Positions 28,270-63,868 of a stretch of 64,000 bases of DNA are shown one piece after another. Position 1 is the first letter of the stretch. Every line of letters starts with the position of its first letter. The stretch covers positions 5,228 to 69,227 of the forward strand of contig DYGC01000001.1 of NCBI GenBank assembly GCA_020724925.1. Reading direction: 5' to 3'. A program made the translations under genes and the position numbers. The notes under the pieces are model-generated. The model did not search any database and was not told the origin of the DNA. It worked only from the letters and a program-made list of their open reading frames with translations. Source of the stretch: Candidatus Paceibacter sp. (lineage in GTDB: Bacteria > Patescibacteriota > Patescibacteriia > DYGC01).

Positions 28270-28288
28270 TTTAATAATTAATAAGTAA

Positions 28289-28768
<480 letters not shown>

Positions 28769-28777
28769 TAAGAGTTT

Positions 28778-29341: not shown

Positions 29342-29349
29342 CTTTATTT

Positions 29350-30351: not shown

Positions 30352-30355
30352 TTTT

Positions 30356-30697: not shown

Positions 30698-30705
30698 TAA
30701 AGATT

Positions 30706-32460: not shown

Positions 32461-32469
32461 AATAATTTT

Positions 32470-33864: not shown

Positions 33865-33873
33865 TTTTTTATT

Positions 33874-45002: not shown

Positions 45003-45809
45003 ATGAATCAAAGTCAACAAGAATTTTTAAAGATGGTGGAGCGGGGGGATAAAATCGCGATGTTGTTCGCCCCGTCTTTTATTGTGGATTTTGATTATCC
45101 GGCGATTGTTGGGATGTCCAAGTCTTTGGGGGCTGGTTTGGTCAGTGAAATTACTTACGGTTGCCACTTGGTCAATACTCATTATAATCATTACATTAAA
45201 AACCATAAAAATCAAAAGTATTTTATCAATACCACTTGTCCAACAATCGTTAATCTGATTCGCACTCAGTTTCCGGATTTGGAAAAATATCTGTTGCCGG
45301 ATATTTCCTGTGCCTTATCTTTTATTGATTTTTATAATTTACTCCATCCTGATTATAAATTGGTTTTTATTTCACCGTGCGTGGCGAAGCGCAGTTTTGA
45401 AACACCGCGTTTGCCGGAGTGGTCTTTGACTTTAACTTTTTCCGAATTGCGTGAATTATTTATTGCTAAAAATATTAAGGCCGAAGATTATCAGAATACT
45501 AATGAACAATGGGATAAATTTTCTCGTATTGATACTAAGCTTTACCCGTTGGATGGTGGCTTGAGTGCGACGGCACGGTGGCAAGAGTTTTTTCCTGATC
45601 TAAAAATTTTCATTGGTTCAGGCCTGAAGAGTTTATTGCCGATTTTTATGCAAATGAAGCAGGGGACTTATGACAAAAATTTGCTGGATGTTTGTGCTTG
45701 CGAGGGGGCGTGCGTCGGTGGTCCCTGTGTTTTCAATAAAGATTTATCTATTCAGGAAAAACGACAAAAGGTGATTGATTATTACAAGCGTTTTCTTGAT
45801 AATTCTTAA
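45003..45809 (+). CDS. [FeFe]-hydrogenase large-subunit C-terminal (H-cluster) domain-like protein, minimal 268-aa form
   Basis: AMLFAPSF start of the Fe_hyd_lg_C fold. L1-like INTTCPTIV (cf. FTSCCPGWV, first Cys replaced by Thr). L2-like FISPCVAKRSFE (cf. MPCTAKKFE). L3-like CACEGACVGGPC (cf. MACxGGCxxGGGQP). No N-terminal ferredoxin-like domains. Confidence 0.45.
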   Translation: MNQSQQEFLKMVERGDKIAMLFAPSFIVDFDYPAIVGMSKSLGAGLVSEITYGCHLVNTHYNHYIKNHKNQKYFINTTCPTIVNLIRTQFPDLEKYLLPDISCALSFIDFYNLLHPDYKLVFISPCVAKRSFETPRLPEWSLTLTFSELRELFIAKNIKAEDYQNTNEQWDKFSRIDTKLYPLDGGLSATARWQEFFPDLKIFIGSGLKSLLPIFMQMKQGTYDKNLLDVCACEGACVGGPCVFNKDLSIQEKRQKVIDYYKRFLDNS

Positions 45810-45923
45810 TTTTGGCAAGCCTACTTTTTTCTGGTATAATGGACTTAACGTCCATTTTTATTTTGGCAAAGATTTAGTTTAGCAAGGGACCGAGTTTTTA
45901 TATTAAAAAATAAAAATATTCCT

Positions 45924-46778
45924 ATGCCGATTGACAGGGAAGAATTGGAAAAACATTTATTGGCAGATGAAGATTTGGATGAAGAGGCACGTTTAAAACA
46001 ATACGCTGCCGCTTTACCCGATGAACCAATGGTGGTTTCCAATTTGAAATATAAAAAACGACGATGGTTCACCAAGTGGTGGGGCGTTTTAATTATTATT
46101 CTTTTCTTTTTCTTGGTGATTTTTGCTTCCATGTTTTTTTATTATTACAAGGATTTTATTAAGAAAATTGAAGCAGGCACCATCCATTTGGATGTCGCTT
46201 ATATGAATTATGATTTTGCCACGCGCTATGATTTGTTGGCGATTTCCCGTGACGTGATGGCTGATGATCCGTGGTGGGGGCACGAAAATGCTAAGGTGGT
46301 AATTGTCGAGTTCGGTGATTATTCCTGCTCGTTTTGTAAAGATTTCAACAATAAAATCATGCCACAATTGATGGATAAATATTATAACGATATCCTGTTT
46401 ATTTATCGTGATTTCCCGGTAATGTCAGGGGCGGAGGGGGCGTCTGTGCAAATTGCTAACGTTGCCAATTGTATTTACAATCATTTAAATGATCCTCGTG
46501 ATTATTGGCGTGCCGTTCATAATTATTTATTTTTGATGACTGATAATTTGGGATCAGTGCATAAAGATTTAGATGGTTATTATGATGTCGTTAAGGCGGA
46601 AAAGTGTATTAATGATAAGATGTTTTACAATGAGGTTTTGCGTGATTTGAATCAGGGGGAAGAGCTGGGCTTGCGTGGAACGCCCTCGTTTTTTATTAAT
46701 GGGCATCCGGTGGCCGGTAGCATGGAAATTGAAGAATGGTTTTATGTGATTGATAAGTTTTTAGCTGCTAATCAATAA
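45924..46778 (+). CDS. DsbA-family thiol:disulfide oxidoreductase, membrane-anchored
   Basis: N-terminal TM helix. Thioredoxin-fold domain with active site DYSCSFCKDF (CxxC) and C-terminal GTPSFFINGHPVAG (cis-Pro loop region). Confidence 0.65.
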   Translation: MPIDREELEKHLLADEDLDEEARLKQYAAALPDEPMVVSNLKYKKRRWFTKWWGVLIIILFFFLVIFASMFFYYYKDFIKKIEAGTIHLDVAYMNYDFATRYDLLAISRDVMADDPWWGHENAKVVIVEFGDYSCSFCKDFNNKIMPQLMDKYYNDILFIYRDFPVMSGAEGASVQIANVANCIYNHLNDPRDYWRAVHNYLFLMTDNLGSVHKDLDGYYDVVKAEKCINDKMFYNEVLRDLNQGEELGLRGTPSFFINGHPVAGSMEIEEWFYVIDKFLAANQ

Positions 46779-46793: not shown

Positions 46794-47351
46794 ATGGTAG
46801 AAATTCGCATTCATGGGCGCGGGGGGCAAGGTTCGGTGACAATGGCGGAACTGTTGTCTTTGGCTGCTGAAAATTGTGATAAATATTCGCAGGCCTTTCC
46901 TCATTTTGGCGTGGAGCGTCGGGGAGCGCCGGTGATCGCTTTTATTAGAATTGATTCCAGTTTTATGCAGACCAGGGAGCAGATTTATCATCCTGATTAT
47001 GTGATTATTCAGGATGCAACTTTGGTGAAAGAAGCTGAGGTGCAAAATGGTATTAGTGATAAGACGACGGTGATTATCAATAGTACTTTAGATAATCAAT
47101 ATTGGAAAAAGTTTTTCAAGGACGGAGTGCGTGTCTATACGGTGCCGGCCACTGATTTGGCTGTCAGTATTATTGGTAAGCCGATTGTTAATACGGTGTT
47201 GATGGGGGCTTTTGCCAAGCTTTGTCCGGACTTGGATTTATCGGGGGCACGAAAGGCGGTGAAAGCATATTTGGGAGAAACCTTTTCCGTTGATTTACTG
47301 AATAAGAATTTAGAAGCAGTGTCTGCCGGTTATAATTATTTAAAAATTTAG
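46794..47351 (+). CDS. porG: 2-oxoacid(pyruvate):ferredoxin oxidoreductase gamma subunit
   Basis: VEIRIHGRGGQGSVTMAELL is a canonical PorG N-terminus. 185 aa. Confidence 0.8.
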   Translation: MVEIRIHGRGGQGSVTMAELLSLAAENCDKYSQAFPHFGVERRGAPVIAFIRIDSSFMQTREQIYHPDYVIIQDATLVKEAEVQNGISDKTTVIINSTLDNQYWKKFFKDGVRVYTVPATDLAVSIIGKPIVNTVLMGAFAKLCPDLDLSGARKAVKAYLGETFSVDLLNKNLEAVSAGYNYLKI

Positions 47352-47355: not shown

Positions 47356-47628
47356 ATGAAAAATAAAATCAGCGTAGCTGCCGGAACCAGTAAAAATAAT
47401 AAAACCGGGGCGTGGCGTAGCTATCGGCCGGAAATTGATTTTGAAAAATGTACTGGTTGTGGAATTTGTGAATCAGTTTGTCCTGAACCGTGTATTAGTA
47501 ATAGTCATAAAATAAATAAAATGGGTAAAGAGGTGAGACAAATTGATTATGATTATTGCAAGGGGTGCGGTTTGTGTGCGGCCGAGTGTCCGTTTAAGGC
47601 GATTAGTATGAAGATTGAAAAAAAATAA
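47356..47628 (+). CDS. porD: 2-oxoacid:ferredoxin oxidoreductase delta subunit (2x[4Fe-4S] ferredoxin)
   Basis: Two cluster motifs CTGCGICESVCP and CKGCGLCAAECP. 90 aa. Confidence 0.8.
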   Translation: MKNKISVAAGTSKNNKTGAWRSYRPEIDFEKCTGCGICESVCPEPCISNSHKINKMGKEVRQIDYDYCKGCGLCAAECPFKAISMKIEKK

Positions 47629-47645: not shown

Positions 47646-48797
47646 ATGGCAAAAGTGATGGAAGGATCGCGCGCGGTGGCGGAGTTGGTGCGTTTGTGTG
47701 AACCGGGCGTGGTTAGTGCTTATCCGATTACCCCGCAAACTCATATTGTGGAATATTTGGCAAAATTTAAGGCTGATGGCTTAGCTACTTATGAATATGT
47801 GCGTGCTGAAAGCGAGTTCACGGCAGCGTCCGTGGTGCTTGGTGCATCAGCCAGTGGCGTTCGTGTGTATAGTGCCACCAGTTCCCAGGGTTTATTATTG
47901 ATGACCGAAGTTTTGTTTAATATTGCCGGCATGCGTTTGCCAGTGGTGATGACTTGTGCCAATCGTTCCGTGAGCGCCCCGATTAATATTTGGAATGATC
48001 AACAGGATGCTTTAACTATTCGTGATTCCGGTTGGTTAATGTTTTATGGTGAGACCGTTCAGGAAGTTTTGGATTTGCATTTGTTGGCTTATAAAGTAGC
48101 AGAGCAATTGAGTTTGCCGGTGATGGTTAATATGGATGGTTTTATTTTAACTCATACTTTTGAACCGGTTGATATTCCTGGTAAGAAAATGATTAAACAA
48201 TATTTGCCAAATTATAAACCGGTTTTGGGGGAAGTTTTAGATCCTAAATTGCCAAAATCATTTGGTTGTTTTGTTGGCCCGAAATATTACTTTGAAATCA
48301 GAAAAGAATTATTTGATAATGTTGTTTCCAGTTTAAAAGTGATTCAGAAGGAAGTACTTAATTTTAAAAAAATATTTAAACGTGATTTGTCTCCGGTGGA
48401 ATATTTTGGTGATAAGCAAGCCAAATTGGTTTTTGTGACAATGGGGTCGGTGGCCGGAACAGTTAAGGATTTTATTGAGAAACACAACAAAAAAAGTAAA
48501 GATAAATTAGGTTTGTTGAAGCTTCGTTGTTTTAGACCTTTCCCGACCGAAGAGATTTTTAAGATTTTAGGTAAAGCTAAGAAGGTGGCAGTCCTTGATA
48601 AATCAGTATCAATGGGGGCGGAGGGGGTTTTGTCCGGTGAAATGAAGCGAGCTTTTTATGGCCGCAAGACTTGTCCGTTAATTAAAAATTATATTCTTGG
48701 TTTGGGCGGACGAGATATTACCAGCGGAATCTTGGGGGACATTTTTGAAGATTTGAAAAAGAGTAGTCAGTCAGAGATTATTTTTAAAGGTAAATAA
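47646..48797 (+). CDS. porA: 2-oxoacid:ferredoxin oxidoreductase alpha subunit
   Basis: MEGSRAVAELVRLCEPGVVSAYPITPQT is a canonical PorA N-terminus. 383 aa. Confidence 0.85.
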   Translation: MAKVMEGSRAVAELVRLCEPGVVSAYPITPQTHIVEYLAKFKADGLATYEYVRAESEFTAASVVLGASASGVRVYSATSSQGLLLMTEVLFNIAGMRLPVVMTCANRSVSAPINIWNDQQDALTIRDSGWLMFYGETVQEVLDLHLLAYKVAEQLSLPVMVNMDGFILTHTFEPVDIPGKKMIKQYLPNYKPVLGEVLDPKLPKSFGCFVGPKYYFEIRKELFDNVVSSLKVIQKEVLNFKKIFKRDLSPVEYFGDKQAKLVFVTMGSVAGTVKDFIEKHNKKSKDKLGLLKLRCFRPFPTEEIFKILGKAKKVAVLDKSVSMGAEGVLSGEMKRAFYGRKTCPLIKNYILGLGGRDITSGILGDIFEDLKKSSQSEIIFKGK

Positions 48798-48803: not shown

Positions 48804-51179
48804 ATGGATTTAAAAAAATTTTGGGATTGCATTAAAAAATCCTATCGCAAATTGAGTTTTTATGAATTGATAACGATGGTGTTTTTTGCGTTTGTGATTT
48901 CCGGCATTATTGTTGGTGATGTTTTGGCGGCAGATAATGTTACGATGAAATATCAGGTGCCAATCGTTGGTGGGCAGAACCCCCAAACTTTGCCGTTGTA
49001 TATCAACGTTGTTTATAAGTGGCTCATGGGGGCGGGCTTGGTTTTGGTGGGTATTATGGTGACAATCGGTGGTTTCATGTATGTTTCTTCCGGTGGTGAT
49101 GCCAAAACCATTGGTACGGGGAAAAAATATATTATCAATGCTTTAATTGGCATGTTGTTGTTATCCAGTGCTTATTTGATTTTAAATACCATCAACCCGG
49201 ATGCGACAGAAATGGAAGATATTGTGGTAAAGCAGGTTGAGGGGGAGGTATTGAAAAATCAAATTGAAGTTCCCTTGGGTTGTGAATGTCATGCTAATAA
49301 AGATTGTGTTAATGCTGCTACCAGTTCTTATTTTTGCGATTGGAGTAGCGGCGGAAGAATGGTATATGATGCTTCCAATAAAAGTTTTATATCACAAAAG
49401 TTAGATCCTTATGCTGAAGCGATTATAGTCGGTACCATTTTAGTGGCGGTTGCTTTTGGCACGGCTGGAACGGGCATTCCCGCTTATTTGGCTTCCAAGG
49501 CTGCGGCTGCCGGAAAAACTGCATTAACTGTGGGAAAAGTGATTGGGAAAGCGGCTTGGGCAACATTCAAATTTACATTCAAGTGGGTGATTTTACCGAC
49601 TAGTTCTTTTGTAGCCGGAGCGGTTATTTCTAATCCGGCCCTTGTTTTTATGGGTTTGATGATGCTTGCCGGGGGTGCAGCCTTTGATTTTAATACGGAA
49701 ATCGTAAAAAAATGTAATCCCCCTAGTGGTGAAGTTAAGGGCGTTTGTTTACCAAATGCTTTTAGGTATGCAAGGTTGAAAACCCATGGGGCGGGGCCAA
49801 CCGATGTTGATTTGGCGGCCGGTACAACGAATAAAAATGGTATGTTTAGTATTTATAATACCGATGGCACTTTGCCGAAGCGTGATTTTTATTTTCGTGA
49901 TCAGGTGACATATTCCATGACTATTAATCAGGAGGGGGGATCATCCTTGTCGGCTGATTCTATTACTCATTTTTATAGAGGTGGTTCCACTGATGGTATT
50001 GTGAACACTGATGGTTGTGCCAGCTATATAAAAAAATATGAAGAAAATTATTGTCCCTGTATTGAATGGGAGGATGGTTTTATGTTTACAAAGTGTAAAA
50101 AACAAGCATCATGTGCAACTATAGAGATGGAGGGTGTAAATATTTATACGGTTGGTGCTGGTGGTACATATTCACAAGGACCAACGTTAAAAAGTACCCA
50201 ACTTTGTTTAACTGGTACGGAAGGGGAAATGTGTAAGACTAATGATGATTGCGGTAAGGGTTTGGAATGTGTCAGTTTAGAAGAGTTGGGAAAGGCTGCA
50301 TATGGTGATGAGTGGCGAAAGTTTGCTATTAAATATAGTACTTTTAGAAAATCAGTAAGAACTTCTCTTACTGATTTAGGGAGTGTCGGTACAATTAAGG
50401 GTGGCTGGGATAGAGACAAAGTTTGTATGTATTCAAAAAATGCGGATAAGGCCAGTTTAACACTTTCTTTGAAAAAAACATTGATGGGGATCGCAGATAT
50501 AGGGGAGTTGGATTGCATGGCTGGGTTAGAAAAATCTGGTGATCATAAAATTCATTGTACTAAGATGGACGTTCCTGTTAATTATTGTGGAATGCTTTCT
50601 TCTGATGTAAAACTTGAAAATTATTTAAAGGCTGGGACAGCGGTAAAAATGTCCGAGGCTTTGTATGACGAAGCCTTAAAATTGTTGGGAAATACAAAAT
50701 TGCAGGTTTATGATAATCTGGATTCATATGTTGGTGCGTCGGCGGGGAATGCGACGGATGTTTTTGATATCAAGTTGGCACGTTGTGATTATTTTTTGCT
50801 TAGCGATAACGATTGTGCTGTTAAGGATGTTTTGGGGCGAGTTGAGCGAATCATTAGGACAACCGACTTGTGTACAAGACAAGCTCTTGATTCATATAAC
50901 CGAAATTATATTAGAAAAAATGCCGATAATTACAAGGACAATTATAGTTTGATGGACCCTGATGAATATTACAAATTTACTTTTGATTATAGTGATTTCA
51001 AGAGTTTTTGTGAAGGTGTTGATGATGAGTGTTCTTGTGATTTGAAGGGTTTGCAAAAAATGTCTTTGATTATACCAGAGGTTGTCAATGGTCCGATTAA
51101 ACATAGCTTTTGTTTAAAAAATACAGATAAATATGGTATTTATAACTATAATTTATTTGTTTTATTGGTTCAGCCGTAA
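48804..51179 (+). CDS. Large cysteine-rich surface protein with an N-terminal VirB2/TrbC-like pilin module (791 aa)
   Basis: Signal/anchor helix, then LYINVVYKWLMGAGLVLVGIMVTIGGFMYVSSGGDAKTIGTGKKYIINALIGMLLLSSAYLIL, the same TM/G-G-x-W/M-x-S-x-G-D/K-rich/TM module as the small paralogs at 62.2-63.9 kb. A second hydrophobic cluster near aa 210-290, then a ~500-aa domain with more than 30 Cys. Lies between porA and porB on the same strand. Confidence 0.55.
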   Translation: MDLKKFWDCIKKSYRKLSFYELITMVFFAFVISGIIVGDVLAADNVTMKYQVPIVGGQNPQTLPLYINVVYKWLMGAGLVLVGIMVTIGGFMYVSSGGDAKTIGTGKKYIINALIGMLLLSSAYLILNTINPDATEMEDIVVKQVEGEVLKNQIEVPLGCECHANKDCVNAATSSYFCDWSSGGRMVYDASNKSFISQKLDPYAEAIIVGTILVAVAFGTAGTGIPAYLASKAAAAGKTALTVGKVIGKAAWATFKFTFKWVILPTSSFVAGAVISNPALVFMGLMMLAGGAAFDFNTEIVKKCNPPSGEVKGVCLPNAFRYARLKTHGAGPTDVDLAAGTTNKNGMFSIYNTDGTLPKRDFYFRDQVTYSMTINQEGGSSLSADSITHFYRGGSTDGIVNTDGCASYIKKYEENYCPCIEWEDGFMFTKCKKQASCATIEMEGVNIYTVGAGGTYSQGPTLKSTQLCLTGTEGEMCKTNDDCGKGLECVSLEELGKAAYGDEWRKFAIKYSTFRKSVRTSLTDLGSVGTIKGGWDRDKVCMYSKNADKASLTLSLKKTLMGIADIGELDCMAGLEKSGDHKIHCTKMDVPVNYCGMLSSDVKLENYLKAGTAVKMSEALYDEALKLLGNTKLQVYDNLDSYVGASAGNATDVFDIKLARCDYFLLSDNDCAVKDVLGRVERIIRTTDLCTRQALDSYNRNYIRKNADNYKDNYSLMDPDEYYKFTFDYSDFKSFCEGVDDECSCDLKGLQKMSLIIPEVVNGPIKHSFCLKNTDKYGIYNYNLFVLLVQP

Positions 51180-51197: not shown

Positions 51198-52073
51198 ATG
51201 ACCAAACAATATCAAGCTCTCTCCCCCGGTCACACCGCGTGCGCCGGCTGCGGCGAACTTCTGGCAATGCGCCACGCTTTGCAAGCGGCCGGACCGGACG
51301 TAATCGTGACCGGAGCCACCGGTTGTAGTGAAGTCACCACTTCCGGTTACCCGGATAGTTCTTTCGGAATGCCGTGGATTCATTCTTTGTTTGAAAATTC
51401 ATCATCGGTTGCATCGGGGATCGCGGCGGCCCTGCGATACCAGAAAAAACAAGACAAAATCAAAGTGATTGCCACCGGCGGTGATGGCGCGACTTTTGAT
51501 ATTGGTTTTGGAGCACTTTCGGCAATGTGGAGTCGTGGTGATGATATTTTGTATATTTGTTATGACAATGAGGCTTATATGAATACCGGTGTGCAAGCTA
51601 GTGGCGCCACTTTGCCGGGAACATCTACGACCACCAGTCCGAGTGGGGCGGTGGAGCAGGGAAATATGATGCCGAAAAAAGATATGCCGGCGATTGCCAT
51701 GGCACACGGTTGTGTTTATGTTGCCACCGCCTCTCCCGGCTACCCGATTGATATTCAAAACAAAGTAAAAAAAGCTTTGACCATGAAGGGACCGAAATAT
51801 ATTCAGTTATTATCGCCGTGTGTGCCAGGCTGGGGTTTTTCTACTGATCAAGCAGTGAAATTAGGAAAACTCGCTCATCAAACCGGTTTGTATCCAATTT
51901 TTGAAGCTGTTAATGGACAAATCACCAGTGCGATGAAAGTCCCCAAACCCACGCCCTCGGTAAGCGCTTATTTGGAATTGCAAAAACGATTTAAACATGT
52001 TTTGAAAAACCCACAATTATTGGCGACGATTCAAGCAATCGCCGATGCCAATATTGTGAAATATGGGTTGTAG
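51198..52073 (+). CDS. porB: 2-oxoacid:ferredoxin oxidoreductase beta subunit (TPP-binding)
   Basis: CAGCGE ... GATGC ... ATGGDGATFDIGFGALS (TPP/Mg GDG motif). 291 aa. Confidence 0.85.
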   Translation: MTKQYQALSPGHTACAGCGELLAMRHALQAAGPDVIVTGATGCSEVTTSGYPDSSFGMPWIHSLFENSSSVASGIAAALRYQKKQDKIKVIATGGDGATFDIGFGALSAMWSRGDDILYICYDNEAYMNTGVQASGATLPGTSTTTSPSGAVEQGNMMPKKDMPAIAMAHGCVYVATASPGYPIDIQNKVKKALTMKGPKYIQLLSPCVPGWGFSTDQAVKLGKLAHQTGLYPIFEAVNGQITSAMKVPKPTPSVSAYLELQKRFKHVLKNPQLLATIQAIADANIVKYGL

Positions 52074-52173: not shown

Positions 52174-52225
52174 GGGGAATCTCGTGGTAGCAAACAACTA
52201 GCTTCGCCCACGAGATCCCGTTTTT
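52174..52225 (+). terminator. Strong rho-independent terminator after porB
   Basis: 12-bp GC-rich stem GGG(A)ATCTCGTGG / CCACGAGATCCC (52175-52219) with a 19-nt loop, followed by GTTTTT. Confidence 0.55.
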
Positions 52226-52411
52226 AAGTCATCCTGAACTTGTTTCAGGATCTCTCCAATAGACTCTTCATTCCTTAAACGACGGAGGAAATAATAAGGA
52301 TTAATTAAGGGATCCTGAAACAAGTTCAGGATGACTTAAACTCCGTGCTTGAAACAAGTTCAGGATGACTTAAACTCTGTGCTTGAAACAAGTTCAGGAT
52401 GACTAGTCCCC
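52225..52411. repeat. 34-bp hairpin-containing tandem repeat (about 3 copies) plus an upstream inverted copy, inside a GC-rich intergenic island
   Basis: Unit GAAACAAGTTCAGGATGACTTAAACTC(C/T)GTGCTT at 52317-52350 and 52351-52384, truncated third copy 52385-52407. Each unit contains the CCTGAA-ACAAG-TTCAGG inverted repeat. TAAGTCATCCTGAACTTGTTTCAGGATC at 52225-52252 is the reverse complement of the unit core. CAGGATGAC also recurs at 52429. Confidence 0.6.
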
Positions 52412-52451
52412 ATACTCCTGCCCCAATCCCAGGATGACAATCCTCGCTTTT

Positions 52452-53924
52452 TTACGGTAATCTCTTCACGAAATCCACAAGCTCCGCTACCGCTTTGTCC
52501 ATTTTTCCACTTTTATTTTCAATCACCAAGTCATAATACTGACTGAAACTTTTTTCTTCACTGGCGTTGGCTAAACGAATTTTAATATCTTCTTCGGTGT
52601 TACTACCACGTCCACGTAAGCGTTTTTCCAAATCTTTGAGCGGGGCATCAATGAAAATCAACCAGGCTTCTGGGTATTGATCACGGATTTGCAAAGCTCC
52701 CTGAATATCGATATTTAAAACAATATTTTTATTTTTGATAGTGTTTTCCAAAACATCACGCGCGGTGCCATAATAATTTTCATGGACCAACGCCCATTCA
52801 ATCACTTTATTTTCTCTAATCAGTTGTTCAAATTCTTCTTTGCTGACATTGAGAATTTTTTTATCTTCAGGAATTTCTCGGGGGGCACGGGTGGTGTAGG
52901 TAGCGCCAGTTTGTAATTGTAACTCTCCGTGTTTTTTTAAAACATCAATGATGATAGTACTTTTCCCAGCACCGGAAGCACCGGAAACAATTAAAATATT
53001 TTTGTTGGGATTGACTTCATTTAAAAACATTTTCAATTCAAATGGTAATTTGCTGTAGAATTTTTGTGGTTCTCCGTTTAAATCAGTAAATTCCAGTTCT
53101 TGTGCATGTAAAAAAATTCTTCCTAAATTAATACTGCGATATTTTTTCTGTTTGTAGAGCGGGTCACCGACAATCGCGTGGCCGAAGGCGTGAAAATGAG
53201 CACGAATTTGGTGAGTGCGTCCGCTTTTTAGATTGATTTTTAATAAGGAGAAGTGTTTGTAAGGTTTGATTAATTCGTATTCGGTAATTGATTCCTTGCC
53301 ACTTTCGGCATTGCTTGGTTTGGCAACCATGCGTTTTTTGTCAGAGCTTCGTTCCAGTTTGAAATTAATAACCCCGCTTTCTTTGTTTGGTTTACCAAAA
53401 GCTAGAGCAATATAATGTTTTTTGATGCTACGATTTTGAAATTGTTGCTTGAGATGTTCAAACATTTTTTTTGTCCGAGCGATTACTAATAAACCGGAGA
53501 CCATTTTGTCCAGACGATGTACGATGCCAGGGCGTAGCGGATCATCACCGATTCCTTCTAAATTTGGATATTTTTCCAATAATTGTTGAATGGCACTGCT
53601 TTGTTGAAGGTTTTTGCTACCATGGGTGGCTAATCCAGCTGGTTTATCAATAACAATAAAATTACGATCGACTTTAAGAATTCTAATCTGCGGAGCATTG
53701 CTTTTGTCGTCTTCTTGTTGGTTTTTTGTATCAAAAACACAAGCAATCTCATCGTTGTTGTCCAGCCAGTGGTGTGGGGTGTTGATGACTTGTCCATTGA
53801 TACTAATTTGGCCATTTTTAATCCAATTTTGGATTTGATTTCGTGAATATTTTTTGAGCTTACTGACCAGAAATTTATCTAAACGCTCATCGCCACTTTC
53901 TTCGAAAATAAAAGTTTTTTTCAT
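52452..53924 (-). CDS. Fusion protein: RluA/RluD-family 23S rRNA pseudouridine synthase (S4 + catalytic domain) fused to guanylate kinase
   Basis: N-terminal S4 domain (ERLDKFLVSKL...) and RluA catalytic motif HRLDKMVSGLLVIART. C-terminal ~190 aa has the Gmk P-loop IVSGASGAGKSTI, TTRAPREIPEDKKILNVSKEEF and EWALVHENYYGT motifs. Single uninterrupted 490-aa ORF. Confidence 0.7.
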   Translation of the reverse strand: MKKTFIFEESGDERLDKFLVSKLKKYSRNQIQNWIKNGQISINGQVINTPHHWLDNNDEIACVFDTKNQQEDDKSNAPQIRILKVDRNFIVIDKPAGLATHGSKNLQQSSAIQQLLEKYPNLEGIGDDPLRPGIVHRLDKMVSGLLVIARTKKMFEHLKQQFQNRSIKKHYIALAFGKPNKESGVINFKLERSSDKKRMVAKPSNAESGKESITEYELIKPYKHFSLLKINLKSGRTHQIRAHFHAFGHAIVGDPLYKQKKYRSINLGRIFLHAQELEFTDLNGEPQKFYSKLPFELKMFLNEVNPNKNILIVSGASGAGKSTIIIDVLKKHGELQLQTGATYTTRAPREIPEDKKILNVSKEEFEQLIRENKVIEWALVHENYYGTARDVLENTIKNKNIVLNIDIQGALQIRDQYPEAWLIFIDAPLKDLEKRLRGRGSNTEEDIKIRLANASEEKSFSQYYDLVIENKSGKMDKAVAELVDFVKRLP

Positions 53925-60126: not shown

Positions 60127-62109
60127 ATGAGGATTTTCAGGCATTTTTCTTTTTTCCTTTTGGTGTTTGCCATGTTTACCTTAAGTGGTAATTTTGTGTT
60201 TTCGGCTGATGATTGTGTTAAAGAGGAGGAGTTGGTTTGTTACACAGTTTTAAGGGTTGATGGTATGAACGTTTTATTTAATGCCACTCCTTCTGGTATT
60301 CAGTTATCGACAAGTGAGGCTCTTAGCTATGCGATGATGAGTGATCAAGCTCGTTCCACTTCTTTGGTGTGCCTCATTCCTAAAAGTAAAATCCCAAAAA
60401 ACATTACTGATGATGATTCTTATGCTCGGTGCATGGCAGAAGCATCGTCTGCTAGTTATGGGTCATTGAAATATTATAAATGTTGGTTGGGAAACAATTT
60501 TAATACTATTACTAGCCCAAATTTTTACACTTGCAATTGGTACACAATTGAAAAGCAGTTGGCTGCGGAAGCACAAGCTAAGCGGCTTGCAGAAGGTAAG
60601 GAATATGGTTCTGGAAACATCACTTGTGGTGGTCGTACTTTTCAGTGTACACCTAGTGGTTGGTTCGCGAATGTTTCCCCCGCCTGTTTTTGTTGCGGTC
60701 AGTGCGAGCCCCGGGATTTATTAACAGTTGGAAATACCTTTTTAAAATGGTTGTTTGGTATTGTCGGGGCGATTGGTTTGGCAATGTTTGTGTGGGGTGG
60801 TTTCAATTGGATTACTTCTGCCGGTGATCAGGGTAAGATCACGACCGGTAAAAAGGCGATTACTAATACCATGGTTGGTTTACTGATTATGTTTTCCGCT
60901 GGAGTGGTTGTTATGACTATTCAAAAAACTCTTGGTTTGGATGTGCAGATATCAGTGGTGGGGCAGCTTGATAGTAATACCGGAGCGGATGCTACCGGTA
61001 GTACCGATGCTAGTCAAGAAGTTCATGGTAATTTGCAATTGGGTGATAAGTGTACAGTTCAAGAGAAAACTTCTAATAGTGATTGTGCTAAGGATTTATA
61101 TTGTTATGCGGTTAAGGACAATCCGGAAACTAAAGGTATTTGTTTGCCAAAAAATCCGAAGGGGTCATCAAAGCCCGGTTATCGTTGTTGGATTTTAAAT
61201 GATGGCAATACTTGTTCTTTGGGGGAATGTTTGGTACTTGTGGAGCCTTCGGTAGATCCTGGTACTACTAATAAAGCCATTCCTGGGACGGAAGGTGTTT
61301 GTACCAGTGAAGAAGACGTAAATAAAATCATTGGTAAGGCTTGTAAGGCCGATACTGAGTGTGGTTCTGGTTTTAAGTGTACTAATGGGAAATGTATAAT
61401 CGTTACTAGCAGTAATATGAATCGTCGCGAACCGTGCTACGTGTTACCGGGTAGTAATACTAATGATTGTATCTCTGATTTTAAGTGCTTTCCGGATTTA
61501 AATAATGCGACTGCTAAAAGAACTGTTGGCACAAAAGGAACCTGTGCTTATAACCAAAGCTTGGTTGAAGGTAAAATATGTATTGGTAATGTTGAATGTA
61601 AAACTGGTTTGCTTTGTAAGCGGATTCCTAAGGCTTCTACCGAGGTGTGTGTTAGTAAAACGAGAAAATTTGATGTTCCTGTCGGTGGATCTTGCTTTAA
61701 ATTTACCATGGAGGGATCCAGTGATCCTGATGATCAATGGAAAAACGTGATTGATAATTGCGTCTTAGGTTTAGATTGTTATTATGGAAAAGATAGCGAC
61801 AAGTCTGGCATTTGTGCACCACCAAATCCTGTGAATTCTGTTAGCAGTATTGGTGGAGAGTGCTATATTTTGCCAGGTAGTTCATCAATGTGTGCCAACA
61901 ATTCCCAGTGCGTTGCTTATATTTCCAAGGCTTATAAAACAACTCCTGGATCAAAGGGTATTTGTATTCCTAAGTATAATTCAGTGGACGAAGGTCAGAC
62001 TTGTGTTTATTTGCCTGGAACTAAAACTGTTTGTAAGAGTGGTTTGACTTGTGATATCGGAATGTGGACCAAGGAATTTGGTCGACAAGGAGTTTGTGTG
62101 CGCAAATAG
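60127..62109 (+). CDS. Large cysteine-rich surface protein with VirB2/TrbC-like pilin module and about 7 tandem Cys-knot-like modules (660 aa)
   Basis: Signal peptide. Cys-rich N-region, then pilin-like module LKWLFGIVGAIGLAMFVWGGFNWITSAGDQGKITTGKKAITNTMVGLLIMFSAGVVVM. About 7 repeats of C-x(5-12)-C-x(3-6)-C-x(8-20)-G(I/V)C(L/I/V)PK (e.g. GDKCTVQEKTSNSDCAKDLYCYAV...KGICLPK; GGECYILPGSSSMCANNSQCVAY...KGICIPK). Confidence 0.55.
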   Translation: MRIFRHFSFFLLVFAMFTLSGNFVFSADDCVKEEELVCYTVLRVDGMNVLFNATPSGIQLSTSEALSYAMMSDQARSTSLVCLIPKSKIPKNITDDDSYARCMAEASSASYGSLKYYKCWLGNNFNTITSPNFYTCNWYTIEKQLAAEAQAKRLAEGKEYGSGNITCGGRTFQCTPSGWFANVSPACFCCGQCEPRDLLTVGNTFLKWLFGIVGAIGLAMFVWGGFNWITSAGDQGKITTGKKAITNTMVGLLIMFSAGVVVMTIQKTLGLDVQISVVGQLDSNTGADATGSTDASQEVHGNLQLGDKCTVQEKTSNSDCAKDLYCYAVKDNPETKGICLPKNPKGSSKPGYRCWILNDGNTCSLGECLVLVEPSVDPGTTNKAIPGTEGVCTSEEDVNKIIGKACKADTECGSGFKCTNGKCIIVTSSNMNRREPCYVLPGSNTNDCISDFKCFPDLNNATAKRTVGTKGTCAYNQSLVEGKICIGNVECKTGLLCKRIPKASTEVCVSKTRKFDVPVGGSCFKFTMEGSSDPDDQWKNVIDNCVLGLDCYYGKDSDKSGICAPPNPVNSVSSIGGECYILPGSSSMCANNSQCVAYISKAYKTTPGSKGICIPKYNSVDEGQTCVYLPGTKTVCKSGLTCDIGMWTKEFGRQGVCVRK

Positions 62110-62182
62110 GTTTGTCTAAAAAGTATTTTTACGCTATAATATAGGTATTATAAACGCCTAATTAAAAAATAAGAAAAAAATT

Positions 62183-62587
62183 ATGCGATCAATGAAAAGT
62201 TTCGTTTTGAGCTTGGTCATGGGCTTGGCGGTTTTTATGCCTTTGGCTGGTGCTAGTGCTGTTACTTTGTTTCCAGATGCTTCTGGTACCGGGGAAGACA
62301 TGGCTACTACCATGGGTTTAAGCGCTGACAAGTCTTTGGCTGAGATTATCGCCAGTATTATTAACATTGTCTTAAGTGTCTTGGGTGTGGTCTTGGTTGT
62401 TTTGATTATTTATGCTGGTATTAAATGGATGACTTCTTCTGATGAAAAGGGTGTCGGTGATGCCAAGAAAATTTTAATCAACGCGATTGTCGGTTTGGTA
62501 ATTATCGTGGCTGCTTGGGCGATTACCTCATTCGTGGTTAGTAGTATTATGACTTCTGTGGGCGATACCGGTGGATTACCTTCCTAG
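62183..62587 (+). CDS. VirB2/TrbC-like pilin-fold protein, paralog 1 (134 aa)
   Basis: Sec-type signal peptide (PLAGASA/VT). Mature part: TM helix IVLSVLGVVLVVLIIYAGIKWMTSSDEKGVGDAKKILINAIVGLVIIVAAWAITSFVV (two TM helices joined by a W-M-T-S-x-D/K-rich turn). Own terminator downstream. Confidence 0.55.
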   Translation: MRSMKSFVLSLVMGLAVFMPLAGASAVTLFPDASGTGEDMATTMGLSADKSLAEIIASIINIVLSVLGVVLVVLIIYAGIKWMTSSDEKGVGDAKKILINAIVGLVIIVAAWAITSFVVSSIMTSVGDTGGLPS

Positions 62588-62595
62588 TTTTTTAT

Positions 62596-62622
62596 AAAAA
62601 GGAGAGTTATTCTCCTTTTTTA
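62596..62622 (+). terminator. Rho-independent terminator after pilin-like paralog 1
   Basis: AAAAGGAGAG-TTAT-TCTCCTTTTTT: perfect 8-bp stem plus T-run. Confidence 0.6.
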
Positions 62623-62658
62623 TAAGGCATCAGTTAATTTGTTGGTGTTTTATAAAAA

Positions 62659-63015
62659 GTGAGAATAATAAAAATTAATATGTTAAATATAAAAAACAAA
62701 TTTCTTGCGTTGGTGACGTCTTTTGCTTTGTGGTTGTTTCCTTTTTGGGTGTTCGCGGAAACTTTATATAATCCAATGAGTGGGACTAAGGATGTGCCAA
62801 CTTTAATTGGTAAGATTTTGAGTATAGTAATTGGTATAATTGGAGCAATTGCTTTGGTAATGTTTATTTTTGGTGGTTTTTTATGGATGACTTCTGCAGG
62901 GGATACGGGATCAATAAAAAAGGGGAAAGATACCATGGTTTATGCAGTTTTGGGATTGGTTGTGGTTTTTTCTGCACGGGCAATTTTGTCTTTTGTTTTT
63001 GAAAATTTAAAATAA
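62659..63015 (+). CDS. VirB2/TrbC-like pilin-fold protein, paralog 2 (118 aa)
   Basis: Signal peptide (WVFA/ET), then IGAIALVMFIFGGFLWMTSAGDTGSIKKGKDTMVYAVLGLVVVFSARAIL. Confidence 0.55.
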   Translation: MRIIKINMLNIKNKFLALVTSFALWLFPFWVFAETLYNPMSGTKDVPTLIGKILSIVIGIIGAIALVMFIFGGFLWMTSAGDTGSIKKGKDTMVYAVLGLVVVFSARAILSFVFENLK

Positions 63016-63025
63016 GTTTATTGAT

Positions 63026-63454
63026 ATGAATAAAAAAATGATTTATTTGGGGGCGTTACTATTTTTTTTGATAGTTCCTTTTTCTTTATTGGCCGCCGAT
63101 TATGGTTTGACCGAGAGTGCTAATGCTGCAAATCTCCCAGAAAATGTTAATTTAATGGGAATGATTGCAAAAGTGGTTGGAACTGCGCTGTCTTTGGTTG
63201 GTGTGATTTTCTTGATTTTATTTATTTATGGAGGAATGCTCTGGATGACGGCCGGTGGTAAGGCTGATAATACAAAAAAAGCTAAGGATTTAATGGTTAA
63301 TGCGGTAATTGGTCTAGTTTTGATTTTTAGTGCGTATTTTGTGACCAGATTTGTGGTTAGTGAATTAACTTCTGCTTCCCAGGTTGTTCCCGGGGGAAGT
63401 ACAACACCAACGCCTGGAACGAGTTTTAGTAATGGAGTTTTTGATAAAGTTTAG
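63026..63454 (+). CDS. VirB2/TrbC-like pilin-fold protein, paralog 3 (142 aa)
   Basis: Signal peptide (SLLA/AD), then LVGVIFLILFIYGGMLWMTAGGKADNTKKAKDLMVNAVIGLVLIFSAYFV, plus a T/P/G-rich C-terminal tail. Confidence 0.55.
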   Translation: MNKKMIYLGALLFFLIVPFSLLAADYGLTESANAANLPENVNLMGMIAKVVGTALSLVGVIFLILFIYGGMLWMTAGGKADNTKKAKDLMVNAVIGLVLIFSAYFVTRFVVSELTSASQVVPGGSTTPTPGTSFSNGVFDKV

Positions 63455-63481
63455 TTTTCAGTTTTTAATAAAATTATTGCT

Positions 63482-63868
63482 ATGGGGTTTCTTTTTTCTA
63501 ATCAATTGATAGTTTTGTTTCTAGGATTTTTAGCGGGGATATTTTCTCCTTTTTTAACATTTGCCAGCGATTATGGGACAAGTGAATTAGCCAGTCAATT
63601 GGGATATAAGACTTATGCGGTTGACCGTGATTTGATTTTAGCGATTGTTGGCAAAGTTATTGCCGGTGTTTTAGGGTTTTTGGGAGTAGTTTTTTTGGTT
63701 GGTATTGTTTATTATGGTTTTAGATGGATGACAGCCGGTGGGAAGTCAGATGTAGTGAAGGTCGCGAAAGATGGGATTACAAATTTGGTAATTGGTTTAA
63801 TTTTGGTTTTATCGGCTTATGCTATTACTAGTTTTATTTTAAGTATTTTAACTAATGTTAATAAATAG
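63482..63868 (+). CDS. VirB2/TrbC-like pilin-fold protein, paralog 4 (128 aa)
   Basis: Signal peptide (TFA/SD), then LGVVFLVGIVYYGFRWMTAGGKSDVVKVAKDGITNLVIGLILVLSAYAI. Confidence 0.55.
   Translation: MGFLFSNQLIVLFLGFLAGIFSPFLTFASDYGTSELASQLGYKTYAVDRDLILAIVGKVIAGVLGFLGVVFLVGIVYYGFRWMTAGGKSDVVKVAKDGITNLVIGLILVLSAYAITSFILSILTNVNK

What the first reader, a model, noticed from the sequence alone, without database searches (positions are those of the whole stretch)
48804..51179. 791-aa cysteine-rich pilin-module protein inserted between porA and porB of the pyruvate/2-oxoacid:ferredoxin oxidoreductase operon
porG (46794), porD (47356) and porA (47646) are contiguous. Then, 6 bp after porA, a 2.4-kb gene for a secreted, more than 30-Cys protein with the VirB2-like module and extra TM helices intervenes, and porB follows only 18 bp after its stop. 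All five genes are on the same strand with minimal spacers, so the surface protein is probably co-transcribed with a central-metabolism enzyme complex. This is either a recent insertion into an essential operon, tolerated because porB is still transcribed, or a genuinely coupled arrangement.
Basis: seen in the sequence. Interest (0 to 1): 0.6.

Follow-up and report, generated by a model that had tools for sequence, protein, structure and literature searches.

The report
Surface pilin gene inside por operon
A gene for a large, disulfide-rich membrane/surface protein with a conjugation-pilin-like anchor really does sit between two subunit genes of a core fermentation enzyme, and this is an old gene order shared by many ultra-small (Patescibacteria) bacteria, not a recent insertion.

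Summary
A 791-aa ORF (48804-51179, 27 Cys, not >30) lies 6 nt after porA and 18 nt before porB, on the same strand as dsbA-porG-porD-porA.

The "recent insertion" reading is refuted:
- All six close relatives keep porA-X-porB.
- In 61 Patescibacteria-type loci, 37 carry one or two Cys-rich pilin-module genes exactly in the porA-porB gap. Eight more such genes sit directly after porB, and none lies elsewhere in about 680 kb of flanks.
- The module tree tracks the PorA tree.
- A DsbA/MdbA-like oxidoreductase precedes porG in 53 of the 61 loci.
- Genes outside this block are not syntenic.
- X has ordinary composition and is under purifying selection. Its anchor is conserved and its ectodomain evolves fast and has no relatives outside its clade.

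The same module subfamily occurs in type IV secretion clusters of other Patescibacteria. It also occurs as a dsbA-pilin pair without por.

Best reading: X is a T4SS-associated surface protein folded by the operon's own DsbA, fixed long ago inside the por operon and probably co-transcribed with it. A biochemical link to the enzyme is unsupported. Transcription was not tested.

The parts
45812..45840 (+). Promoter-like site (TTGGCA-17-TATAAT with TG extension, 11/12) upstream of dsbA. Candidate start of the transcription unit.
   Evidence: This is a single consensus match, and promoter-like counts in the region equal the shuffled expectation, so it is only a candidate. It sits in the 114-nt gap after the Fe-hydrogenase-like gene.
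45924..46778 (+). Membrane-anchored DsbA/MdbA-like thiol-disulfide oxidoreductase (284 aa, TM helix near aa 52-75, CSFC active-site motif). First gene of the conserved block.
   Evidence: Pfam Thioredoxin_4 2e-23 and DSBA 3e-8. A homolog lies directly upstream of porG in 53 of 61 Patescibacteria-type loci and in none of the 22 non-Patescibacteria loci. The same family directly precedes a pilin-module gene where por is absent (L088, L092).
46794..47351 (+). porG, gamma subunit of a four-subunit 2-oxoacid (pyruvate-type):ferredoxin oxidoreductase.
   Evidence: Pfam POR 3e-35. TIGR02175 180 bits versus an 81-bit cut-off.
47356..47628 (+). porD, delta subunit (2x[4Fe-4S] ferredoxin-like; motifs CTGCGICESVCP and CKGCGLCAAECP).
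   Evidence: Pfam Fer4 families. TIGR02179 93.7 bits versus a 60-bit cut-off. The motifs are read from the translation.
47646..48797 (+). porA, alpha subunit.
   Evidence: Pfam POR_N 8e-66 and PFOR_II 3e-25. NCBIfam PorA_Arch 467 bits, below the equivalog cut-off.
48804..51179 (+). X: a 791-aa polytopic membrane protein with a VirB2/TrbC-like pilin module and a disulfide-rich ectodomain (27 Cys).
   Evidence: ORF. Architecture. Orthologs at 62%, 39% and 35% identity, all between porA and porB. dN/dS versus L001 is 0.21, so the gene is under purifying selection.
48852..48932 (+). X aa 17-43: long N-terminal signal-anchor or signal peptide after a Lys/Arg-rich start. Possible cleavage near VLA/AD.
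   Evidence: Hydropathy. Helix 19-40 in the AlphaFold model. The cleavage site is inferred, not tested.
48993..49205 (+). X aa 64-134: pilin module, two long hydrophobic helices joined by the loop SSGGDAKTIGTGKKY and ending in the subfamily motif ILNTINPD.
   Evidence: PF18895 23.8 bits. Local module HMM E = 1e-24. hhalign 98.4% to the window's short pilins. AlphaFold helices 63-95 and 100-130 at pLDDT above 90. 93% identical to L001, dN/dS 0.04.
49281..49337 (+). X aa 160-178: small four-Cys cluster (CxCx5Cx9C) in the first predicted external loop.
   Evidence: Cys positions. All four Cys are invariant in the seven family members.
49401..49694 (+). X aa 200-297: an additional TM hairpin with a Lys/Ala-rich predicted cytoplasmic loop. 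Specific to the window's own clade.
   Evidence: Hydropathy. TM segments after the module are predicted in the window's clade (two in window, L001 and L004; one in L005) and in only three other por-linked pilin-module proteins, one each (L050, L056, L059).
49695..51176 (+). X aa 298-791: fast-evolving Cys-rich ectodomain (22 Cys) with no detectable relatives outside its own small clade.
   Evidence: Only 6 hits in 1.84 billion representative proteins. No Pfam, NCBIfam, PHROG or PDB match. 55% identity to L001 versus 89-97% for PorA and PorB. AlphaFold pLDDT below 50.
51198..52073 (+). porB, beta (TPP-binding) subunit. Last gene of the block.
   Evidence: Pfam TPP_enzyme_C 1e-19. NCBIfam PorB 332 bits. 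97% identical to L001.
52175..52226 (+). Terminator-like hairpin (12-bp stem) followed by GUUUUUAA, about 100 nt after the porB stop. Candidate end of the transcription unit.
   Evidence: Inverted repeat I6. RNA fold -20.9 kcal/mol, z = -2.6. By contrast the porA/X and X/porB junctions are unstructured (z = +0.9 and +0.1).

Best explanation
X is a long, membrane-anchored member of the Patescibacteria VirB2-like (T4SS_pilin) family.

Predicted topology (inferred): a long signal-anchor and a two-helix pilin module hold it in the membrane. Two extra TM helices, specific to this clade, follow. About 560 residues carrying 26 Cys are displayed outside the cell.

Inferred function:
- The ectodomain is stabilised by disulfides made by the DsbA/MdbA-like oxidoreductase encoded at the head of the same gene block.
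- It serves cell-surface or host contact in connection with the type IV secretion-like apparatus.
- Its anchor is conserved and its ectodomain diverges fast, which fits this role.

Shown: the gene was not inserted recently. The block dsbA-porG-porD-porA-[pilin-module gene(s)]-porB was formed once, deep in a large Patescibacteria clade whose record titles include Buchanan-, Falkow- and Kuenenbacteria. It has since been inherited vertically, with duplications, occasional clean losses, and secondary insertions of toxin-antitoxin and other genes into the same gap.

Inferred origin: dsbA plus the pilin-module gene form an accessory pair from the tail of the T4SS cluster, and the por genes became interleaved with it. 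One possible route is por landing between dsbA and the pilin gene, then a tandem duplication of porB-pilin, then loss of one porB copy.

Inferred expression: the six genes are read as one transcript, from a promoter upstream of dsbA to a hairpin after porB. The surface protein and its folding enzyme would then be expressed constitutively together with the central pyruvate-oxidising enzyme.

Inferred reason for persistence: the order persists mainly because a gene inside an essential, tightly packed operon can be removed only by a precise deletion. X and the enzyme do not need to touch each other.
For: - **Synteny in close relatives.** All of L001-L006 show dsbA-porGDA-X-porB.
- **Breadth.** 37 of 61 Patescibacteria-type loci have 1-2 Cys-rich (7-70 Cys) pilin-module genes on the same strand in the porA-porB gap. 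Eight further copies sit directly after porB (-7 to +27 nt). None lies elsewhere in the flanks.
- **Outgroup.** All non-Patescibacteria relatives with the gap resolved have contiguous porA-porB and no dsbA, apart from two with an unrelated gap.
- **Single origin.** The por-embedded modules cluster apart from the window's array pilins, and their distances correlate with PorA distances (rho 0.58, permutation p 0.001). The clade with contiguous porA-porB is nested among clades that carry the pilin gene.
- **The block is kept as a unit.** Genes flanking the block in the window (Fe-hydrogenase-like, rsmE, polA, rluD-gmk, yknX) are syntenic only in the closest relatives. In L060, L061 and L069 dsbA-porG-porD is inverted, yet porA-pil-porB-pil stays together.
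- **Tight spacing.** Median porA-to-pil spacing is about 8 nt and pil-to-porB about 24 nt. The junctions are unstructured and a strong hairpin lies only after porB.
- **Link to T4SS and DsbA.**
  - Proteins retrieved with the module profile lie in dsbA-porGDA-pil-porB (L087).
  - They also lie in dsbA-pil-radA without por (L088).
  - They lie in VirB4...dsbA-pil-x-pil-radA (L092).
  - They lie in PrgI/TraC-VirB4/TrbL clusters next to dnaA (L089, L090, L091, L093).
  - They share the LNTINPxL motif and group with the por-embedded modules.
  - The 163-aa ORF between the two pilin genes of L092 is homologous to ORFs in the por gap of L033 and L037.
- **Real, native gene.** dN/dS is 0.21 overall, 0.04 for the module and 0.25 for the ectodomain, against 0.02-0.10 for the por genes. 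GC3 and codon usage are typical for the window.
- **Literature.** VirB2-like pilins and pilin arrays are widespread in Patescibacteria (PMC12102498). An MdbA-like oxidoreductase family enriched in this group has been proposed to fold pilins (bioRxiv 10.1101/335083).
Against: - No transcript or protein data were available, so co-transcription, disulfide formation by the neighbouring DsbA, and surface exposure are all inferred.
- X itself scores below Pfam's threshold for T4SS_pilin.
- No T4SS core gene (VirB4, VirB6/TrbL, PrgI) was found among the window ORFs scanned with Pfam (26 of the 47 ORFs of at least 150 aa) or in the 10 kb beyond its pilin array.
- The structure of the ectodomain could not be predicted (pLDDT 37.9). 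The fold search with the N-terminal model gave only non-significant helical matches.
- The trees are neighbour-joining trees of a single protein or of a 70-residue module, without support values.
- dS is near saturation (about 1), so the dN/dS values are rough.
- Keeping the block intact while all other synteny decayed, even after an inversion that split the operon, is somewhat more than a purely passive 'trapped gene' model predicts.
- Contexts of module relatives were sampled for only seven proteins.
Confidence: 0.6

Rival explanations
1. Recent insertion: X, or a mobile element carrying it, landed between porA and porB recently in this lineage and is merely tolerated.
For: The ectodomain is an orphan with almost no relatives. 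In other genomes the same gap also holds toxin-antitoxin pairs, a GIY-YIG protein and other cargo, so it accepts insertions.
Against: Orthologs occupy the same position in genomes whose PorA is only 77-89% identical, and homologous modules do so in genomes at 50-62% PorA identity. Composition and codon usage are typical. There is no flanking mobility gene, and no room for repeats in spacers of 6 and 18 nt. The module is under strong purifying selection.
Confidence: 0.02
2. Insertion hotspot with repeated, independent captures: the porA-porB junction is a permissive site, and different lineages independently acquired different pilin-module genes there, so the shared order is convergent.
For: The number of genes in the gap varies (0, 1 or 2 pilin genes; 1-4.8 kb). 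It also holds unrelated genes: ParE, YafQ, HigB and Phd toxin-antitoxin modules, DUF2283, NTP_transferase, GDP-mannose dehydratase, AAA_14/DUF4143, 23S rRNA IVP and GIY-YIG. The ectodomains cannot be aligned between clades.
Against: The por-linked modules form one group, distinct from the window's short array pilins, and their divergence mirrors PorA divergence. Second copies (btw2) and post-porB copies mostly group by position, apart from the pairs of L026, L031 and L049, as expected for old duplications. No pilin-module gene lies anywhere else in about 680 kb of flanks, whereas a hotspot for 'any cargo' would not select one subfamily in 37 genomes.
Confidence: 0.1
3. True functional coupling with the enzyme. 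Possible forms:
- X and/or the DsbA-like protein tethers POR to the membrane.
- They pass reducing equivalents between ferredoxin and the extracytoplasmic thiol/disulfide system in organisms that lack quinones.
- Co-translational membrane insertion of X localises the por mRNA and POR assembly to the membrane.
- Expression of the host-contact apparatus is deliberately locked to pyruvate catabolism.
For: The block dsbA-porGDA-pil-porB survives while all surrounding synteny is lost. porA-pil-porB stays together even where dsbA-porGD is inverted. dsbA stays with por even in the clade that lost the pilin gene. Patescibacteria are reported to lack electron transport chains (bioRxiv 10.1101/2020.04.07.029462, title and abstract only), so the re-oxidation route of a DsbA is an open question.
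Against: The por-embedded proteins have no conserved cytoplasmic domain. The only conserved cytoplasm-facing element, the loop between the two module helices, is shared with ordinary short pilins, and the extra cytoplasmic loop of X is specific to its clade. The same subfamily functions in genomes or loci without adjacent por (L088-L093). About a third of related genomes have por without the pilin gene. POR produces rather than consumes electrons in the catabolic direction (established biochemistry), which does not help to oxidise DsbA.
Confidence: 0.15
4. X is a decaying or spurious ORF, meaning a long open frame in a degenerate spacer.
For: There is no family or structure match for 85% of its length, and the structure confidence is poor.
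Against: The frame is intact in every relative at 763-820 aa. dN/dS is well below 1. The Cys positions, the module and 100+ columns are invariant. Coding-like composition.
Confidence: 0.01

Closest known systems
VirB2-like (Pfam T4SS_pilin PF18895 / TrbC PF04956) pilins and pilin arrays of Patescibacteria (Microb Genom 2025, PMC12102498)
   Same: The same two-helix hydrophobic module after a long signal sequence. It is homologous to the window's own pilin array at 60127-63868. Relatives of the same module subfamily lie beside VirB4/PrgI/TrbL.
   Different: X is 791 aa, not about 120 aa. It carries two extra TM helices and a 494-aa Cys-rich ectodomain. It belongs to a distinct subfamily marked by LNTINPxL. 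It is encoded inside the por operon, not beside virB4 or in an array. That paper does not mention thioredoxin, DsbA or pyruvate genes.
Canonical four-subunit pyruvate/2-oxoacid:ferredoxin oxidoreductase operon porG-porD-porA-porB (archaeal/Thermotoga type)
   Same: The same four subunits in the same order, with all domains present. Omnitrophota, Planctomycetota, Actinomycetota and other relatives show the contiguous form.
   Different: The alpha and beta subunit genes are separated by 2.4 kb that encodes a membrane protein, and a dsbA gene is fused to the front of the operon. This holds in 37 and 53 of 61 Patescibacteria-type loci respectively.
MdbA/DsbA-dependent folding of secreted pilins in Gram-positive Actinobacteria, and the MdbA-like family enriched in the Candidate Phyla Radiation (bioRxiv 10.1101/335083)
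   Same: A membrane-anchored thioredoxin-fold protein with CxxC, encoded with a Cys-rich secreted pilin-type substrate. Direct dsbA-pilin adjacency is seen in L088 and L092.
   Different: The presumed substrate is a VirB2-type module protein, not a sortase-assembled or type IV pilin. No VKOR partner is seen in the block, and the enzyme-substrate relation is inferred from gene order only.
Modular pilins, i.e. pilin modules fused to large functional C-terminal domains, as described for type IV pili of Streptococcus sanguinis (recalled from memory, not checked here)
   Same: Concept only: a conserved polymerisation/anchor module carrying a variable, surface-exposed effector domain.
   Different: A different pilin superfamily (type IV pilus versus VirB2/TrbC). 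There is no evidence here that X is incorporated into a filament.

Membership tests
T4SS_pilin (PF18895) / TrbC-VirB2 (PF04956) pilin superfamily | Match to the curated family profile above its gathering score | tested here: not met
   X scores 23.8 bits against a 26.6-bit cut-off (E 4.6e-5). Its orthologs P0002-P0007 carry precomputed PF18895 hits, and 41 of 73 ORFs in the por gap match at E <= 0.01.
T4SS_pilin (PF18895) / TrbC-VirB2 (PF04956) pilin superfamily | Demonstrable homology of the module to bona fide family members | tested here: met
   hhalign of 14 por-embedded modules against the window's four short pilins gives probability 98.4%, E 4e-15. One of those pilins passes both PF18895 (51 bits) and TrbC (36.6 versus 27.9 bits). 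The local module HMM gives E 1e-24 for X.
T4SS_pilin (PF18895) / TrbC-VirB2 (PF04956) pilin superfamily | Long signal sequence followed by two hydrophobic helices forming a hairpin | tested here: met
   Hydropathy segments at 17-48, 66-98 and 108-131. AlphaFold helices 19-40, 63-95 and 100-130, the last two at pLDDT above 90. The Foldseek search against PDB gave no significant match (best E 0.8), so similarity to solved VirB2/TraA structures is not shown.
T4SS_pilin (PF18895) / TrbC-VirB2 (PF04956) pilin superfamily | Small protein (about 100-140 aa) that is the repeating subunit of a conjugative-type pilus | tested here: not met
   X is 791 aa with about 660 aa beyond the module. Polymerisation is not testable with these tools.
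T4SS_pilin (PF18895) / TrbC-VirB2 (PF04956) pilin superfamily | Encoded with T4SS core genes (virB4, virB6/trbL, virB3/prgI) | tested here: not met
   No such gene was detected among the window ORFs scanned with Pfam (26 of the 47 ORFs of at least 150 aa) or in the 10 kb beyond the pilin array. Relatives of the same module subfamily are so encoded in other Patescibacteria.
Four-subunit 2-oxoacid:ferredoxin oxidoreductase (porGDAB) operon | All four subunits with their characteristic domains | tested here: met
   The two CxxCxxCxxxCP motifs in PorD are read.
Four-subunit 2-oxoacid:ferredoxin oxidoreductase (porGDAB) operon | Contiguous gene order gamma-delta-alpha-beta | tested here: not met
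   The order is kept, but alpha and beta are separated by X. Contiguity is the rule in the non-Patescibacteria relatives.
Four-subunit 2-oxoacid:ferredoxin oxidoreductase (porGDAB) operon | Substrate specificity for pyruvate | not testable with these tools
   The best NCBIfam hits are PorA, PorB, PorC and PorD models, but all are below their equivalog cut-offs. Only the pyruvate/2-ketoisovalerate subfamily models pass.
DsbA/MdbA-like extracytoplasmic thiol-disulfide oxidoreductase (gene 45924-46778) | Thioredoxin fold with CxxC and a membrane anchor or signal | tested here: met
   Thioredoxin_4 83.8 bits and DSBA 34 bits. The CSFC motif and an N-terminal hydrophobic segment are read. Activity on X is not testable.
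Recently acquired insert / genomic islet | Atypical composition, absence from close relatives, and mobility genes or target-site repeats | tested here: not met
   GC3 z = -0.22 and RSCU distance z = -0.73. X is present in all relatives found. The spacers of 6 and 18 nt leave no room for repeats.

The most novel reading that the evidence does not exclude
The interleaving may be functional rather than a frozen accident. In a large Patescibacteria clade, the central pyruvate-oxidising enzyme, an extracytoplasmic disulfide oxidoreductase and a T4SS-associated surface protein would form one selected expression unit. This could lock host-contact machinery to pyruvate catabolism. It could also tether por mRNA and POR assembly to the membrane through co-translational insertion of X, or link ferredoxin redox state to envelope thiol chemistry in organisms without quinones.
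Probability: 0.12. Interest if true: 0.75.

Novelty: new variant of a known kind. Interest (0 to 1): 0.5.

Why it matters
Patescibacteria are mostly uncultivated, and their surface and type IV secretion proteins are thought to be central to how they live on host cells. This result does three things:

- It defines a distinct subfamily of long, Cys-rich proteins with a VirB2-type module (LNTINPxL motif).
- It ties that subfamily by gene order to a DsbA/MdbA-like folding enzyme.
- It shows that in many genomes both are wired into the operon of the main fermentative enzyme, an arrangement I did not find described in three full-text searches.

This gives annotators a rule: a gap between porA and porB in these genomes is not a misassembly or a pseudogene. 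It gives evolutionary biologists a clean case of a non-metabolic gene held inside an essential operon over deep time. It gives experimentalists a specific prediction, a single dsbA-to-porB transcript, that existing groundwater and sediment metatranscriptomes could test.

If the coupling proved functional, it would link central metabolism to the host-interaction apparatus in these organisms.

Tried and rejected
- **Full-length structure of X.** AlphaFold with the 7-sequence family alignment gave mean pLDDT 37.9, which is unusable, so no fold search was run on it.
- **N-terminal structure of X.** AlphaFold of aa 1-200 with 109 sequences gave a confident two-helix hairpin. Foldseek against PDB then returned only non-significant generic helical matches.
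- **Searches with the ectodomain.** Sequence searches against 1.84 billion representative proteins and PDB, and full-length X scans against Pfam, NCBIfam and PHROGs, found nothing beyond its own clade.
- **Profile search of the module against PDB.** Only chance hits to photosystem helices.
- **Promoter and terminator consensus scan.** Counts equal the shuffled expectation, so it neither supports nor excludes internal signals.
- **Rfam scan of the whole window.** Only two tRNAs were found, and nothing in or around the operon.
- **Literature.** Three full-text searches combining pilin/VirB2, ferredoxin oxidoreductase and Patescibacteria/CPR found no description of this arrangement. The library lacks most subscription journals, so this is weak evidence of novelty.
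- **Fe-hydrogenase-like gene at 45003-45809.** I considered whether it belongs to the conserved block. It does not, because it is syntenic only in the closest relatives.
- **Physical anchoring of POR by X.** I considered this and rejected it as the main reading, because the family has no conserved cytoplasmic domain.


Full report
**Observation**

The window region 45.9-52.1 kb carries six co-directional ORFs on the + strand:
- a DsbA-like gene, 45924-46778;
- porG, 46794-47351;
- porD, 47356-47628;
- porA, 47646-48797;
- a 791-aa ORF, here called X, 48804-51179;
- porB, 51198-52073.

The spacers are 15, 4, 17, 6 and 18 nt. Pfam and NCBIfam confirm the four subunits of a pyruvate/2-ketoisovalerate-type 2-oxoacid:ferredoxin oxidoreductase. 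The Cys count is 27, not more than 30.

**Anatomy of X**

- A Lys/Arg-rich N-terminus precedes a signal-anchor at aa 17-43.
- A two-helix hydrophobic hairpin spans aa 64-134 and ends in ILNTINPD.
- A four-Cys cluster lies at aa 160-178.
- Two further TM helices (aa 200-227 and 267-297) flank a Lys/Ala-rich loop.
- A 494-aa tail holds 22 Cys.

With the positive-inside rule, all Cys except Cys9 fall outside the cell. That is 26 Cys, an even number, which fits disulfides.

The hairpin scores 23.8 bits on Pfam T4SS_pilin, below the 26.6-bit cut-off. A profile of 14 por-embedded modules nevertheless aligns to the window's own short pilins with 98.4% hhalign probability. Those pilins lie at 62183-63868, and one of them passes both PF18895 and TrbC/VirB2. 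With 109 sequences, AlphaFold predicts helices 63-95 and 100-130 at pLDDT above 90. The fold search was uninformative for such a simple fold.

The C-terminal domain is an orphan. It has six hits in 1.84 billion representative proteins, all from its own clade or weak. It has no Pfam, NCBIfam, PHROG or PDB match. The full-length model was unusable, with pLDDT 37.9.

**Is it a recent insertion? No.**

Only eight homologs of full-length X exist in 5.8 billion clustered proteins. Every one whose context could be read lies between porA and porB, in loci that are syntenic from polA to the ABC transporter (L001-L006).

Identity to the window:

| Locus | PorB | PorA | X |
|---|---|---|---|
| L001 | 97% | 89% | 62% |
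| L004 / L005 | 92-93% | 77% | 39% / 35% |

dN/dS against L001:
- X overall: 0.21;
- X module: 0.04;
- X ectodomain: 0.25;
- por genes: 0.02-0.10.

dS is about 1, so these values are rough. X has typical GC3 (z = -0.22) and typical codon usage (z = -0.73) for the window.

**How widespread is the arrangement?**

A scan of one genome per GTDB species with PorA returned 80 loci. The nearest carry Patescibacteria titles (Candidatus Buchanan-, Falkow- and Kuenenbacteria, Parcubacteria group) at no more than 62% PorA identity. The most distant are Omnitrophota, Planctomycetota, Actinomycetota and others.

I located the por genes by tblastn, listed ORFs in the porA-porB gap, and detected pilin modules with Pfam and with a local HMM. 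Results for 61 Patescibacteria-type loci:
- 37 have one or two pilin-module genes in the gap. All are on the por strand, and nearly all are Cys-rich (7-70 Cys).
- 8 further copies lie directly after porB (-7 to +27 nt).
- No pilin-module gene lies anywhere else in about 680 kb of flanks.
- 21 loci have contiguous porA-porB.
- 3 loci have other inserts.
- A DsbA-like gene sits upstream of porG in 53 of the 61.

The 22 non-Patescibacteria loci have no dsbA and, with two unrelated exceptions, contiguous porA-porB.

Spacing is tight in most lineages, with a median of about 8 nt from porA to the pilin gene and about 24 nt from the pilin gene to porB. Larger gaps hold toxin-antitoxin pairs and other small cargo.

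**One origin or many?**

On a PorA neighbour-joining tree, the state with the pilin gene in the gap covers most Patescibacteria clades. The contiguous Buchananbacteria-like clade is nested among them, as sister to the window's clade, which suggests secondary loss.

The por-linked modules group together, apart from the window's array pilins. Their pairwise distances correlate with PorA distances (Spearman 0.58, permutation p = 0.001). Second copies and post-porB copies mostly group by position, apart from the pairs of L026, L031 and L049, as old duplications would.

The genes that flank the block in the window are syntenic only in the closest relatives, so the block itself is what is conserved. 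In L060, L061 and L069, dsbA-porG-porD is inverted while porA-pil-porB-pil remains together.

**Where does the pilin-module gene come from?**

I ran a reciprocal search with the module profile and read seven contexts:
- P0016 lies in dsbA-porGDA-pil-porB, followed by two more pilin-module genes (L087).
- P0026 lies in dsbA-pil-radA with no por (L088).
- P0024 lies in VirB4-...-dsbA-pil-163aa-pil-radA-recG (L092).
- P0047, P0055, P0099 and P0103 lie in PrgI/TraC-VirB4/TrbL clusters. Three of the four are next to yidC and dnaA.

All seven share the LNTINPxL motif. Six of them group with the por-embedded modules, and P0016 groups with the outlier L022. The 163-aa ORF of L092 is homologous to ORFs inside the por gap of L033 and L037.

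A published survey reports that T4SS loci of class ABY1 commonly include radA and recG, and that VirB2-like pilins are widespread. It does not mention DsbA or por genes (PMC12102498). An earlier study proposed that an MdbA-like oxidoreductase enriched in this radiation folds pilins (10.1101/335083).

The simplest reading is that dsbA plus the long pilin-module gene form a T4SS accessory pair, and that the por genes became interleaved with it. One possible route, which is inference only:
1. por lands between dsbA and the pilin gene.
2. porB-pilin is duplicated in tandem.
3. The first porB copy is lost.

The porA-pil-porB-pil state still seen in nine loci fits this route.

**Expression signals**

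- A good promoter-like site (TTGGCA-17-TGnTATAAT) lies at 45812-45840, before dsbA. Promoter-like and terminator-like counts across the region equal the shuffled expectation.
- The porA/X and X/porB junctions are unstructured (z = +0.9 and +0.1).
- A hairpin of -20.9 kcal/mol (z = -2.6) followed by GUUUUUAA lies at 52175-52226, after porB.
- The spacer before porB is a conserved AT-rich stretch (TAATTTATTA...TTTATAT) in all four close genomes. It could be a translation-initiation region or a -10-like element, so an internal promoter is not excluded.

**Verdict**

The "recent insertion" interpretation is refuted. The "coupled arrangement" interpretation is supported as an ancient, vertically inherited gene block.

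X is best described as a clade-specific, enlarged member of a distinct long subfamily of Patescibacteria proteins with a VirB2-type module. These are probably disulfide-stabilised surface proteins associated with the type IV secretion-like apparatus and folded by the operon's DsbA.

Whether the embedding in the por operon is a frozen accident or a selected co-expression unit cannot be decided without transcript data. I favour the former with co-transcription (confidence 0.6) and give functional coupling about 0.12-0.15.

Novelty: new variant of a known kind. Interest: moderate (0.5).

Noticed in passing
window 52223-52438 (also L001 11433-11540 and L050 11474-11637): The convergent intergenic region after porB holds four exact copies of the 20-mer TGAAACAAGTTCAGGATGAC (none expected by chance), a 34-nt tandem repeat in three copies, and a 33-bp inverted repeat. 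The same exact 20-mer, again partly at 34-nt spacing, lies right after porB in a distant Falkowbacteria genome (PorA 55% identical). There is no Rfam match. It looks like a small palindromic REP/MITE-like element (hairpin TCCTGAA-ACAAG-TTCAGGA) shared across Patescibacteria.
   Followed up: partly
window 60127-63868, continuing beyond the window end (L094 6646-11678): This is a pilin array. It starts with a 660-aa pilin-module protein with 44 Cys, followed by short (118-142 aa) Cys-free VirB2/TrbC-like pilins. There are four short pilins in the window and seven in the full locus. YebC and RuvC follow, and no VirB4 is nearby.
   Followed up: partly
window 16111-18873: dnaA and dnaN are here, so the replication origin is probably near 15.5-16.1 kb. 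The dsbA-por-X-porB block lies about 30 kb from it on the strand with positive GC skew.
   Followed up: no
window 26221-34515: Apparent V/A-type ATPase operon (V_ATPase_I-like 682-aa subunit; catalytic A subunit at 30706-32460).
   Followed up: no
window 45003-45809: A 268-aa protein consisting only of the [FeFe]-hydrogenase large-subunit C-terminal (H-cluster) domain. It is very conserved in close relatives (91-94% identity) but is not part of the widely conserved block.
   Followed up: partly
window 52452-53924 (- strand): A single 490-aa ORF combining S4, pseudouridine synthase (RluD-like) and guanylate kinase domains. It is conserved as a fusion in L001 and L005.
   Followed up: no
L027, L033, L035, L037-L039, L041, L044, L007, L019, L062 (porA-porB gaps): In other Patescibacteria the same gap also holds other cargo: ParE, YafQ, HigB and Phd toxin-antitoxin genes, DUF2283, a GIY-YIG protein, a 23S rRNA-IVP protein, NTP_transferase, GDP-mannose dehydratase and AAA_14/DUF4143. 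The junction therefore also acts as a tolerated insertion site.
   Followed up: partly
L010, L012, L013, L020, L025, L030, L033, L041, L043, L044, L046, L049, L054, L058, L060, L063, L069: Many third-party-annotated MAG records titled 'uncultured Gammaproteobacteria bacterium' carry Patescibacteria-type loci (dsbA-por, with pilin-module genes in part of them) and group with Patescibacteria on the PorA tree. The organism labels look wrong.
   Followed up: no
L088 3109-4347, L092 3003-4238, L093 5955-7175: An unannotated protein of about 410 aa recurs next to the long pilin-module gene in T4SS-type loci. The L088 and L092 copies are homologous to each other; L088 and L093 carry a faint or weak Tricorn_N hit, and L093 showed no BLAST match to the other two. 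No homolog was detected in the window.
   Followed up: partly
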